Of a stretch of 32,000 nt of DNA, positions 14,683 to 14,893 are shown one piece after another. Each line of letters starts with the position of its first letter. Positions within the stretch are counted from its first letter, which is position 1. The translations under genes were made by a program, and so were the position numbers. Location: assembly GCF_000020385.1 (NCBI RefSeq), contig NC_010814.1, forward strand, positions 2,520,001 through 2,552,000, in the 5' to 3' direction. Below the pieces are notes generated by a model. The model was not told the DNA's origin, ran no database searches, and saw only the letters and a program-made list of their open reading frames with translations. This stretch comes from Trichlorobacter lovleyi SZ. Lineage in GTDB: Bacteria > Desulfobacterota > Desulfuromonadia > Geobacterales > Pseudopelobacteraceae.

Positions 14683-14721
14683 AAAACAAAAAGCCTGACT
14701 TTTCTTGCGAAAAGACAGGCT
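14683..14721 (-). terminator. Intrinsic terminator forming the expression platform of the riboswitch leader
   Basis: The minus strand reads AGCCTGTCTTTTC-GCAA-GAAAAGTCAGGCT-TTTTGTTTT. This pairs 12 of 13 bp, has a GNRA loop and is followed by a U-run. It lies about 35 nt after the aptamer and about 125 nt before the ORF start at 14558. Confidence 0.8.
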
Positions 14722-14751
14722 ACATGAGAATGCCTCTATGCAGACATTCTG

Positions 14752-14838
14752 CTAACCGCTTCGGTAACCCCTCTTCCCGGTCCGGGTAGGTGGCTTTGCG
14801 TCATCCAGTCCCCTGGATTTTGCCTTTTCGGTGAAAGC
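14752..14838 (-). promoter_or_regulatory. GEMM-I (c-di-GMP-I class) riboswitch aptamer
   Basis: The minus strand reads CACCGAAAAGGCAAAAUCCAG-GGGA-CUGGAUGACGCAAAGCCACCUACCCGGACCGGGAAGAGGGGUUACCGAAGCGGU. The shared blocks, in the same order as the V. cholerae Vc2 aptamer as I recall it, are:
- GGCAAA
- a perfect 6-bp hairpin with a GNRA loop
- GACGCAAAGCC
- a second hairpin
- GGGGUUACCGA-G-GG

An outer ACCG/CGGU P1 pairing is possible. Confidence 0.75.
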
Positions 14839-14864
14839 TTTATTGTTTGTGACTATGTACTGTT

Positions 14865-14893
14865 ACTATGCTGCCACACGGAACGACTGTCAA
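14865..14893 (-). promoter_or_regulatory. Candidate sigma70 promoter for the riboswitch leader
   Basis: The minus strand has TTGACA (14893..14888), a 17-nt spacer and CATAGT (14870..14865). This puts the transcription start about 20 nt upstream of the aptamer. The -10 box is only 4/6. Confidence 0.4.

What the first reader, a model, noticed from the sequence alone, without database searches (positions are those of the whole stretch)
14683..14893. Candidate c-di-GMP-I (GEMM-I) riboswitch with its own promoter and terminator, lying in a stretch with no convincing ORF
**Aptamer**
- Minus strand 14838 to 14752 contains, in the correct order, the conserved GEMM-I blocks:
  - GGCAAA
  - a perfect 6-bp hairpin capped by a GNRA loop (AUCCAG-GGGA-CUGGAU)
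  - GACGCAAAGCC
  - a second hairpin
  - GGGGUUACCGA
- This closely parallels the Vc2 aptamer as I remember it.

**Expression platform**
- About 35 nt downstream is a strong intrinsic terminator (14721-14683).
- About 20 nt upstream is a TTGACA-17-CATAGT promoter candidate.
- CGAAAAG (14830-14824), overlapping the 5' strand of P1, is complementary to CUUUUCG (14714-14708) in the terminator 5' arm. This offers a possible antiterminator, so ligand binding would favour termination (an OFF switch). That is inference.

**Ligand class**
- The base directly 5' of CAAA is G, the position I recall as G20 in Vc2. That predicts c-di-GMP rather than the 3',3'-cGAMP specificity of Geobacter GEMM-Ib variants.
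Basis: partly seen in the sequence, partly recalled or inferred. Interest (0 to 1): 0.75.

Follow-up and report, generated by a model that had tools for sequence, protein, structure and literature searches.

The report
c-di-GMP-I riboswitch in Trichlorobacter lovleyi
This is a genuine but ordinary cyclic-di-GMP class I riboswitch in the leader of a small zinc-finger-like gene of Trichlorobacter (Geobacter) lovleyi. It most likely stops transcription at its own terminator when c-di-GMP is high.

Summary
Rfam RF01051 (c-di-GMP-I) matches window 14834-14760 (minus) at 60 bits against a gathering score of 35, the only Rfam hit in 32 kb. The TTGACA-17-CATAGT promoter (14893-14865) and the terminator (14721-14683) are present.

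In three related lineages from metagenomes, conservation starts at the -35 box. The 75-nt aptamer is invariant, while flanking non-coding DNA differs by 13-40%. Every stem substitution keeps pairing, including one U-A to C-G swap in the terminator.

- The antiterminator is 10 bp (CGAAAAGGCA 14830-14821 with UGUCUUUUCG 14717-14708).
- It buries G20/G21/C22 and has a pair probability of about 1 once the terminator 5' arm is made.
- Aptamer and terminator can coexist, as in the C. difficile Cd1 OFF switch.

Two corrections:
- G20 is 14824, two bases 5' of CAAA, not the base next to it. It is still G, so c-di-GMP rather than cGAMP remains the prediction.
- The stretch is not ORF-free. A conserved 75-aa four-cysteine ORF (14558-14331, dN/dS 0.16-0.33) starts 125 nt after the terminator, followed by ihfA.

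The window is from T. lovleyi SZ. This is a known class and of low interest. Ligand binding and switching remain untested.

The parts
14865..14893 (-). Sigma-70-type promoter: -35 TTGACA (14893-14888), 17-nt spacer, -10 CATAGT (14870-14865). Predicted transcription start is about 14858 +/- 2.
   Evidence: Listed by the promoter scan with 10 of 12 matches. Both hexamers are invariant in three lineages while 5 spacer positions differ, and sequence conservation begins here. The start site is inferred from spacing only.
14760..14834 (-). c-di-GMP-I (GEMM-I) aptamer, as matched by Rfam RF01051.
   Evidence: 60.0 bits against a gathering score of 35, E = 1.5e-9, model positions 1-87. There are 0 of 75 differences to either related lineage, against 13-40% in flanking non-coding DNA.
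14829..14838 (-). P1 5' strand (GCU..ACCG). It pairs with 14758-14751.
   Evidence: Present in the minimum-free-energy folds. The pairs are invariant, so there is no covariation evidence.
14824..14824 (-). G equivalent to Vc2 G20, the nucleotide that reads the ligand's G-alpha. A at this position marks cGAMP-sensing GEMM-Ib.
   Evidence: Rfam model position 11, unpaired, aligns to this G. Model positions 12-13 (G21, C22 = 14823, 14822) pair with model positions 37 and 36 (C46, G45 = 14798, 14799). The G20/A14 rule is from PMC6140456. The Vc2 numbering itself is from my own recollection.
14803..14818 (-). P2 hairpin AUCCAG-GGGA-CUGGAU: 6 bp with a GNRA tetraloop.
   Evidence: Read directly from the sequence and aligned to P2 of the Rfam model.
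14792..14802 (-). J2/3 block GACGCAAAGCC, including the C46 and A47 equivalents (14798, 14797).
   Evidence: Identical to the Rfam consensus GACGCAAAgCc.
14761..14771 (-). 3' block GGGGUUACCGA, with the C92 equivalent in ACC (14765-14763).
   Evidence: Aligned to the model's 3' end. The exact C92 assignment rests on recollection of Vc2.
14751..14758 (-). P1 3' strand (CGGU.AGC).
14727..14750 (-). Spacer hairpin 2: AGAAUGUCU-GCAUAG-AGGCAUUCU (9 bp). It lies between the aptamer and the terminator and probably provides the time window for ligand binding.
   Evidence: Present in the fold. Two stem substitutions in L009 go to G.U wobble, while the loop takes 3-4 changes. The aptamer-competent fold stays within about 1-2.5 kcal/mol of the minimum while this hairpin is transcribed.
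14683..14721 (-). Intrinsic terminator: 12-bp stem with one U.U mismatch, GCAA loop, then UUUUUGUUUU.
   Evidence: Present in the fold. It shows one compensatory U-A to C-G change and one G-C to G.U change among lineages, and 100% of cells are paired.
14821..14830 (-). Antiterminator 5' strand CGAAAAGGCA. It overlaps P1 and buries G20, G21 and C22.
   Evidence: It pairs with 14717-14708 at probability 0.84-1.0 in transcripts ending at 14708-14702. That fold is about 9 kcal/mol better than the aptamer fold at that length.
14708..14717 (-). Antiterminator 3' strand UGUCUUUUCG, which is most of the terminator 5' arm.
14331..14558 (-). Regulated gene: a 75-aa protein with CxxC...YCSDxC (four invariant cysteines), of unknown function.
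   Evidence: dN/dS is 0.16-0.33 among three lineages. It belongs to a family of about 20 cluster representatives. There is no Pfam family above threshold, only weak treble-clef/FCS zinc-finger hits.
13841..14125 (-). ihfA (integration host factor alpha, WP_012470405). It lies 205 nt downstream on the same strand and may be co-transcribed.
   Evidence: Pfam PF00216, E = 9e-33. Exact match to T. lovleyi IHF-alpha. No canonical terminator or promoter is found in the gap. Co-transcription is an inference.

Best explanation
This is a canonical c-di-GMP-I (GEMM-I) riboswitch in the 5' leader of a small operon of Trichlorobacter lovleyi SZ.

Proposed mechanism:
1. Transcription starts near 14858 from a sigma-70-type promoter.
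2. The aptamer (14838-14751 including P1) folds first.
3. The 9-bp spacer hairpin (14750-14727) then gives roughly 35-40 nt of transcription time for ligand binding.
4. If c-di-GMP is bound, P1 and the junction are locked. The terminator (14721-14683) then forms and transcription stops.
5. If no ligand is bound, the freshly made terminator 5' arm (UGUCUUUUCG) pairs with CGAAAAGGCA. That strand overlaps P1 and includes G20-C22. A helper helix forms between GGUUA of the P1 3' strand and UAGCC. This antiterminator lets RNA polymerase read into the 75-aa four-cysteine gene (14558-14331) and probably ihfA.

The net logic is that high c-di-GMP turns the operon off.

What is shown: family membership, conservation, and the structure-preserving substitutions. 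What is inferred: the ligand, the OFF logic, the transcription start, and co-transcription of ihfA.
For: - **Family.** RF01051 at 60 bits against 35. An identical aptamer lies upstream of the orthologous ORF in 9 metagenomic loci from two further lineages.
- **Constraint.** There are 0 of 75 aptamer differences, against 13-35% in the spacer to the ATG, 26-40% upstream of the -35 box, and dS of 0.14-0.27 in the ORF.
- **Promoter.** The hexamers are invariant while the spacer varies.
- **Stems.** All 45 modelled pairs are standard in all 4 distinct sequences. The terminator has one double compensatory change. Hairpin 2 changes go to wobble pairs, and its loop is free to vary.
- **Switch.** The aptamer-competent fold stays within about 1-2.5 kcal/mol of the minimum from transcript end 14753 to 14720. 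The antiterminator fold is about 9 kcal/mol better at ends 14708-14702, with pair probabilities of 0.84-1.0. The terminator fold regains the lead (4.3, then 1.6 kcal/mol) once its 3' arm is made.
- **Precedent.** Aptamer and terminator can coexist, which is the Cd1 OFF architecture described in PMC9262584.
- **Ligand.** G is present at the G20 equivalent, and the A47 and C92 blocks are identical to the consensus.
- **Target gene.** The ORF is under purifying selection. The riboswitch travels with it even where the upstream gene differs.
- **Host.** The organism encodes c-di-GMP receptors, for example an MshEN-T2SSE ATPase at 26057-27844.
Against: - There is no experimental evidence for ligand binding, the transcription start or termination.
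- The aptamer and the antiterminator strands are invariant among the available relatives. Covariation therefore cannot test P1, P2, P3 or the antiterminator.
- With 4 sequences the pair statistics are not significant (115 of 500 shuffles do as well).
- The antiterminator complementarity is only modestly unusual. The best aptamer-to-arm duplex has p of about 0.01-0.02 against shuffles. That duplex is actually a different pairing, between the P3 3' strand and the arm.
- At full length the terminator fold is thermodynamically favoured even without ligand (-61.6 against -50.9 kcal/mol). Read-through therefore depends on kinetics.
- The ORF has no good Shine-Dalgarno sequence at the right distance.
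- Distant homologues of the ORF have no riboswitch.
Confidence: 0.7

Rival explanations
1. The aptamer is the same, but it senses 3',3'-cGAMP or is bispecific. This would be GEMM-Ib-like behaviour, which is common in Geobacter relatives.
For: The host is a Geobacter-group organism. Many GEMM-I-like aptamers in that group are cGAMP sensors, and some natural members are bispecific (PMC6140456 and PMC9262584). Residues at the base of P2 can also tune selectivity (PMC9262584 introduction).
Against: The signature A at position 20 is absent; this aptamer has G at 14824. Wild-type Vc2 with G20 binds cGAMP only at about 10 uM, against picomolar affinity for c-di-GMP (PMC6140456). The best clan member is canonical RF01051.
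Confidence: 0.12
2. It is a c-di-GMP riboswitch with different output logic. It could be an ON switch. Alternatively the terminator could be a constitutive attenuator, with control exerted on translation, Rho or RNA stability.
For: The terminator fold is the thermodynamic minimum at full length even without ligand. The antiterminator is A-U rich. The ORF's ribosome-binding region is atypical, and a conserved block GUUAUCAGGAGCCAAUCGGGGGUAC lies just upstream of the ATG. Known GEMM-I members include ON, OFF and translational types (PMC9262584).
Against: The terminator does not overlap the aptamer, so ligand binding cannot directly block it. That overlap is what an ON design such as pilM requires. 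Truncated-transcript ensembles put the antiterminator at a probability of about 1 without ligand.
Confidence: 0.13
3. It is a free-standing riboswitch-derived small RNA of about 175 nt (14858-14683). It would act in trans or as a c-di-GMP sponge, with no cis-regulated gene. This is what 'own promoter and terminator, no ORF' would suggest.
For: The unit is compact: promoter, aptamer, then a strong terminator. The next start codon is 125 nt beyond the terminator.
Against: A conserved ORF under purifying selection follows on the same strand in every relative, and no promoter-like site lies between it and the terminator. The riboswitch and ORF stay linked where the upstream synteny breaks. A built-in antiterminator only makes sense if read-through matters.
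Confidence: 0.04
4. It is a chance resemblance or a decayed, non-functional relic.
For: None beyond the lack of experiments.
Against: E = 1.5e-9 for the whole window. There are zero substitutions in 75 nt across lineages whose neighbouring non-coding DNA differs by 13-35%. By my own calculation from the rates, the chance of that is below 1e-4.
Confidence: 0.01

Closest known systems
Rfam RF01051, c-di-GMP-I (GEMM-I) riboswitch; type example Vibrio cholerae Vc2
   Same: It has the same three-helix junction. The conserved blocks AAAGGCAAA, GACGCAAAGCC and GGGGUUACCGA are shared, the last identical to Vc2's GGGGUUACCGA. P2 is 6 bp with a GNRA loop. G is present at the G20 equivalent, and the C46/A47 and ACC (C92) blocks are present.
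   Different: P3 is shorter than the consensus. About 12 model positions are deleted, including the CUAA bulge of the tetraloop receptor. The tetraloop is GGGA rather than GAAA. The output is a transcription terminator, whereas PMC9262584 describes Vc2 as translational.
Clostridioides difficile Cd1 c-di-GMP-I riboswitch (transcriptional OFF switch upstream of flgB)
   Same: Aptamer and terminator can coexist and together compete with an antiterminator that uses aptamer strands. A stretch between aptamer and terminator provides a ligand-binding window (PMC9262584; compare).
   Different: The host is Gram-negative (Desulfuromonadia). The spacer here is a discrete 9-bp hairpin. The antiterminator uses the 5' P1/J1-2 strand (CGAAAAGGCA) plus part of the P1 3' strand. 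The regulated genes are unrelated: a small four-cysteine protein, possibly with ihfA, rather than flagellar genes. Nothing has been tested experimentally here.
Geobacter GEMM-Ib cGAMP riboswitches (Gs1761/pgcA, pilM)
   Same: The overall fold and the phylogenetic neighbourhood are the same. Regulation acts through an intrinsic terminator.
   Different: Those have A at position 20 (A14 in Gs1761), and pilM is an ON switch whose terminator overlaps P1. Here position 20 is G, and the terminator is separate from the aptamer.

Membership tests
c-di-GMP-I riboswitch (Rfam RF01051) | Covariance-model score at or above the curated gathering threshold. | tested here: met
   60.0 bits against 35, E = 1.5e-9, full model 1-87, not truncated. 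The result is the same in 9 related loci.
c-di-GMP-I riboswitch (Rfam RF01051) | Conserved junction sequences around a three-way junction: AAAGGCAAA, GACGCAAAGC and the 3' block ACCGA. | tested here: met
   All are present and aligned at posterior probability '*'. They can be read directly.
c-di-GMP-I riboswitch (Rfam RF01051) | Ligand-contacting nucleotides: G20 (reads G-alpha), A47 (intercalates) and C92 (pairs with G-beta). | tested here: met
   G is at 14824, A at 14797, and ACC at 14765-14763, by alignment to the model. Residue roles are from PMC6140456, PMC5888326 and bioRxiv 10.1101/871194. Mapping of the Vc2 numbers onto model columns uses my recollection of the Vc2 sequence.
c-di-GMP-I riboswitch (Rfam RF01051) | P2 capped by a GNRA tetraloop that docks into a receptor in P3 (type 1 GEMM). 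| tested here: inconclusive
   The tetraloop GGGA is present. P3 is shortened and the consensus CUAA receptor positions are deleted in the alignment. Whether another receptor is used cannot be told from the sequence.
c-di-GMP-I riboswitch (Rfam RF01051) | A P1 helix closing the junction. | tested here: met
   ACCG/CGGU plus GCU/AGC form in the minimum-free-energy folds. The pairs are invariant, so covariation gives no support.
c-di-GMP-I riboswitch (Rfam RF01051) | Selective, high-affinity binding of c-di-GMP. | not testable with these tools
   This needs in-line probing, ITC or gel shift.
c-di-GMP-I riboswitch (Rfam RF01051) | Location in the 5' untranslated leader of a gene, with an expression platform. 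| tested here: met
   The order on one strand is promoter, aptamer, hairpin, terminator, then a 125-nt spacer and a conserved ORF.
GEMM-Ib (3',3'-cGAMP riboswitch) | Adenine at the position equivalent to Vc2 G20 (A14 of Gs1761). | tested here: not met
   The aligned nucleotide is G (14824). The rule is from PMC6140456.
Rho-independent (intrinsic) terminator | A stable G+C-containing hairpin immediately followed by a U tract. | tested here: met
   A 12-bp stem (5 G-C pairs, one U.U mismatch), a GCAA loop and UUUUUGUUUU. It shows a compensatory U-A to C-G change. The pattern scan did not list it, because the mismatch splits the stem.
Transcriptional OFF riboswitch of the Cd1 type | Aptamer and terminator are compatible. 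A mutually exclusive antiterminator uses aptamer strands and the terminator 5' arm. | tested here: met
   The test is in silico only. The antiterminator is 10 bp plus 5 bp, with pair probability 0.84-1.0 in truncated transcripts. The energy ordering goes aptamer, then antiterminator, then terminator as the transcript grows. Ligand-dependent termination itself cannot be tested here.

The most novel reading that the evidence does not exclude
The riboswitch puts a previously undescribed family of small four-cysteine (CxxC...YCSDxC) treble-clef-like proteins, and with it an IHF-alpha gene, under direct c-di-GMP control. In some relatives the homologues sit next to MshEN, PilZ or HD-GYP-type genes. 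The small protein would then be a new component of c-di-GMP signalling that links the second messenger to nucleoid or transcription architecture in Desulfuromonadia.
Probability: 0.1. Interest if true: 0.5.

Novelty: already known. Interest (0 to 1): 0.2.

Why it matters
As a riboswitch it adds nothing new in kind. The class has been known since 2007-2008. This copy scores far above Rfam's threshold in a reference genome sequenced long ago, so standard Rfam-based annotation should already flag it.

Its modest value lies in three points:
- It is a cleanly built OFF-type platform (aptamer, delay hairpin, terminator, and an antiterminator that buries G20). It occurs in a Geobacter-group organism, where most studied relatives are cGAMP ON switches.
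- It could serve as a compact c-di-GMP-specific, G20-type counterpart to those switches.
- It points to a small uncharacterised cysteine-rich protein, and possibly IHF-alpha, as c-di-GMP-repressed genes.

Tried and rejected
- **E. coli genomes.** A megablast of the locus found no match. The organism was instead identified through exact protein look-ups.
- **Covariation.** I hoped for covariation from orthologous leaders. Only three lineages exist in the collections and the aptamer is identical in all of them. Only hairpin 2 and the terminator give any signal, and it is not statistically significant.
- **Riboswitch upstream of distant homologues.** No RF01051 was found at the gathering score or at E <= 1 in 18 loci. 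The association is specific to the Trichlorobacter lineage.
- **Link between the protein family and c-di-GMP genes.** The first seven contexts looked enriched (MshEN, PilZ, GAF-HD_5). A further subfamily, five to six more contexts, sits between a cytochrome c3/c7-like gene and an outer-membrane beta-barrel gene near Slp and MutS, with no such domains. The link is now about 4 of 12 contexts, so it is a weak hint only.
- **Function of the 75-aa protein.** There is no Pfam family above threshold, only weak DUF2256, zf-FCS and treble-clef hits. The PDB profile search gives only marginal zinc-finger/eL24 matches. The AlphaFold model (pLDDT 76.7) has no Foldseek match at E <= 0.001.
- **Literature.** I found no paper linking T. 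lovleyi, this locus or ihfA to a c-di-GMP riboswitch. Kellenberger 2015 (PMC4418906) is not held.
- **Duplex shuffle test.** The best arm-to-aptamer duplex is a different pairing (P3 3' strand with the arm, -17.8 kcal/mol, p about 0.01-0.02) from the one chosen in whole-transcript folds. I kept it as a secondary antiterminator candidate.
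Full report

Yes. On the minus strand, the window reads ...GCUUUCACCGAAAAGGCAAAAUCCAGGGGACUGGAUGACGCAAAGCCACCUACCCGGACCGGGAAGAGGGGUUACCGAAGCGGUUAGC... 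at 14838-14751.

A cmscan of the whole 32-kb window against all 4227 Rfam 15 families returns a single hit above threshold. It is RF01051 c-di-GMP-I at 14834-14760 (minus), 60.0 bits against a gathering score of 35, E = 1.5e-9. It covers the full-length model and is not truncated.

The promoter scan independently lists TTGACA-17-CATAGT at 14893..14865 with 10 of 12 matches, the best site in the 2.5 kb scanned.

The terminator is GCCUGUCUUUUC-GCAA-GAAAAGUCAGGC followed by UUUUUGUUUU (14721-14683). The pattern scan did not list it, because a U.U mismatch interrupts the stem. It is present in the minimum-free-energy fold of the leader (-64.6 kcal/mol, z = -3.9, 0 of 200 shuffles as stable).

**2. 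Where is it from, and what surrounds it?**

Exact protein look-ups identify the source as Trichlorobacter (formerly Geobacter) lovleyi SZ. The matches are IHF-alpha WP_012470405, an HD-domain nucleotidyltransferase ACD96076, MiaA ACD96077 and a 1562-aa glycosyltransferase ACD96063, all on a 3,917,761-bp contig.

The claim that the stretch has no convincing ORF does not hold. On the same strand, 125 nt after the terminator, a 75-aa ORF (14558-14331) begins. It is followed after 205 nt by ihfA (14125-13841; Pfam PF00216, E = 9e-33), then a 2-hydroxyacid dehydrogenase and a rhomboid protease.

The 75-aa ORF has no Pfam family, but it is a real gene:
- Orthologues at 91% identity exist in metagenomes.
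- dN/dS among the three lineages is 0.16-0.33, with an excess of third-position changes.
- An exhaustive HMMER search of 1.84 billion representatives finds about 20 small proteins (64-152 aa). They share invariant CxxC, YS, YCSDxC and F..R motifs.

**3. Comparative evidence**

Nine metagenomic loci from two further lineages (L001-L008 and L009) carry the orthologous ORF. Every one has the RF01051 hit upstream with an identical aptamer sequence.

In the alignment, conservation begins at the -35 hexamer. Both promoter hexamers are invariant, while five spacer positions differ in L001.

| Region | Differences vs L001 | Differences vs L009 |
|---|---|---|
| Upstream of -35 | 26% | 40% |
| Aptamer (75 nt) | 0 of 75 | 0 of 75 |
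| Hairpin 2 region | 11% | 14% |
| Terminator | 4% | 10% |
| Spacer to the ATG | 13% | 35% |
| 75-aa ORF | 8% | 6% |

(All values.) At the spacer's rates, zero changes in 75 nt has a probability below 1e-4. That figure is my own arithmetic.

In L001 the gene upstream of the promoter is different: a 2-oxoacid dehydrogenase E2 instead of the cupin/UPF0047 pair. So the riboswitch travels with the ORF-ihfA unit.

All 45 modelled base pairs are standard pairs in all four distinct sequences. The terminator carries one double compensatory change (U-A to C-G) and one G-C to G.U change. Hairpin 2 has two changes to wobble pairs, while its loop absorbs 3-4 substitutions. With only four sequences this is not statistically significant (115 of 500 shuffles do as well). 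The invariant aptamer gives no covariation signal either way.

**4. Ligand class**

In the Rfam alignment, model positions 12-13 (G, C) pair with positions 37 and 36 respectively. These are Vc2 G21-C46 and C22-G45. The unpaired G at model position 11 is therefore G20.

This agrees with the literature lists of contact residues A18, G20, C46, A47 and C92, and with my recollection of the Vc2 sequence. In the window, G20 = 14824, G21 = 14823 and C22 = 14822. So the base directly 5' of CAAA is G21.

Both positions are G, so the conclusion stands:
- cGAMP-sensing GEMM-Ib aptamers carry A at position 20 (A14 in Gs1761).
- Wild-type Vc2 with G20 binds cGAMP only at about 10 uM, against picomolar affinity for c-di-GMP (PMC6140456).
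- The A47 block (GACGCAAAGCC) and the C92 block (UUACCGA) match the consensus.

Because the host belongs to the Geobacter group, where cGAMP riboswitches abound and some are bispecific, I keep cGAMP or dual specificity as a rival at about 0.12.

**5. Expression platform**

I folded transcripts of increasing length from the predicted start.

| Transcript 3' end | Energies and state |
|---|---|
| 14753 to about 14720 | An aptamer-competent structure (P1, G21-C46, C22-G45 and P2 enforced; ligand-contact bases unpaired) lies within about 1-2.5 kcal/mol of the minimum. The aptamer is effectively the ground state while hairpin 2 is made, a ligand-binding window of roughly 35-40 nt. |
| 14708 (terminator 5' arm complete) | The minimum switches to a fold in which CGAAAAGGCA (14830-14821) pairs with UGUCUUUUCG (14717-14708), and GGUUA of the P1 3' strand pairs with UAGCC. 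Energy is -48.3 against -39.7 kcal/mol for the aptamer fold. Pair probabilities are 0.84-1.0, and G21-C46 drops to 0.01. |
| 14693 (terminator 3' arm complete) | Aptamer plus terminator regains the lead: -54.9 against -50.6 kcal/mol. |
| 14684 (end of U tract) | Aptamer plus terminator leads by only 1.6 kcal/mol. |

Ligand binding would add the energy needed to keep the aptamer locked, so the antiterminator never forms. This is the landscape expected of a kinetic OFF switch. It matches the published description of the C. difficile Cd1 riboswitch, where aptamer and terminator coexist and compete with an antiterminator. In the pilM ON switch, by contrast, terminator and aptamer are mutually exclusive (PMC9262584).

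Caveats:
- The antiterminator strands are invariant, so no covariation test is possible.
- A duplex-energy test against shuffles is only modestly significant (p about 0.01-0.02).
- The top duplex in that test is an alternative pairing: the P3 3' strand CGGGAAGAGGGGUUA with the whole terminator 5' arm. That pairing would also give OFF logic.
- At full length without ligand, the terminator fold is thermodynamically preferred (-61.6 against -50.9 kcal/mol). Read-through therefore has to be kinetically controlled.

**6. What is regulated?**

The first gene is the 75-aa four-cysteine protein. Profile searches give only sub-threshold similarity to treble-clef/FCS-type zinc fingers (DUF2256, zf-FCS, DUF2116, eL24). 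An AlphaFold model (pLDDT 76.7) has no significant PDB match. Its function is therefore unknown.

ihfA may be co-transcribed. The 205-nt gap contains hairpins but no U tract and no sigma-70-like site, and it is poorly conserved except near the ihfA ribosome-binding site. Co-transcription is an inference.

Distant homologues of the small protein lack any GEMM element. Some sit beside MshEN, PilZ or GAF-HD_5 genes. Another subfamily sits between a cytochrome c3/c7-like gene and an outer-membrane beta-barrel gene, with no such neighbours. Any link between the family and c-di-GMP is therefore weak, at about 4 of 12 contexts.

**7. Comparison with the known, and verdict**

This is a member of RF01051 by every criterion I could test:
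- the model score;
- the junction sequences;
- the contact nucleotides;
- P1 and P2 with a GNRA loop;
- the 5'-leader location.

The exception is the tetraloop receptor, which is unclear because P3 is shortened. It fails the GEMM-Ib signature (A20). It works like Cd1.

I found no paper on this particular copy. Even so, the class is well known and the copy scores far above threshold in a long-available reference genome. I therefore rate it as already known and of low interest (0.2).

The most novel reading still open is that the small four-cysteine protein family, perhaps together with IHF-alpha, is a new c-di-GMP-linked module. I give that about 0.1.

Noticed in passing
window 14331-14558 (minus): A 75-aa ORF that the exact look-up did not find in the protein collection. 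It belongs to a small family (about 20 representatives, 64-152 aa) with invariant CxxC...YS...YCSDxC..F.R. It has no Pfam family and only weak treble-clef/FCS zinc-finger similarity. dN/dS is 0.16-0.33.
   Followed up: yes
L011 3335-6264; L013 1-2842; L015 1066-1329; L016 403-1563: Homologues of the 75-aa protein lie next to c-di-GMP-related genes in 4 of about 12 contexts. These are MshEN-T2SSE ATPases, an MshEN response regulator, HDOD, PilZ and GAF-HD_5. Another subfamily (L014, L019-L027) sits between a cytochrome c3/c7-like gene and an outer-membrane beta-barrel gene near Slp and MutS. The association is suggestive but weak.
   Followed up: partly
window 12796-13725 (minus): The 2-hydroxyacid dehydrogenase gene appears split in this genome. 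A 65-aa N-terminal ORF (13725-13528) and a 225-aa ORF (13473-12796) align to residues 1-65 and 85-309 of the intact 309-aa orthologue in L001. This could be a frameshift, a pseudogene or a sequencing error.
   Followed up: partly
window 26057-27844 (minus): An MshEN-domain T2SSE ATPase lies 11 kb from the riboswitch. MshEN is a known c-di-GMP-binding domain, so the genome has protein receptors for the same messenger.
   Followed up: no
window 14894-15170 versus L001 5510-5700 and L009 1620-1860: Synteny breaks immediately upstream of the riboswitch promoter. The window has cupin_5/UPF0047/CCA-type genes. L001 has 2-oxoacid dehydrogenase E1/E2 genes. L009 has a 539-aa gene. The promoter-riboswitch-ORF-ihfA block behaves as one unit.
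   Followed up: partly
window 14765-14779 with 14708-14722 (minus): A second possible antiterminator exists. The P3 3' strand CGGGAAGAGGGGUUA can pair with the whole terminator 5' arm UAGCCUGUCUUUUCG (-17.8 kcal/mol, p about 0.01-0.02 against shuffles). Whole-transcript folds do not choose it.
   Followed up: partly
window 14852-14857 (minus): The -10 hexamer CATAGT is repeated 13 nt downstream (14857-14852), right at the predicted transcription start. Both copies are conserved in the relatives. Its significance is unknown.
   Followed up: no
window 14567-14591 (minus): A conserved block GUUAUCAGGAGCCAAUCGGGGGUAC lies in the otherwise variable spacer. It contains AGGAG 27 nt before the ATG, which is too far for a normal Shine-Dalgarno sequence. 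The start codon itself has only a weak GGA upstream.
   Followed up: no
window 419-1204 (minus); 2029-10815 (minus): A DDE transposase (DUF4372 + DDE_Tnp_1) lies at the window edge. Next to it is a co-directional cluster: a 1562-aa family-2 glycosyltransferase, a methyltransferase, an 875-aa radical SAM/SPASM protein and a sulfotransferase.
   Followed up: no
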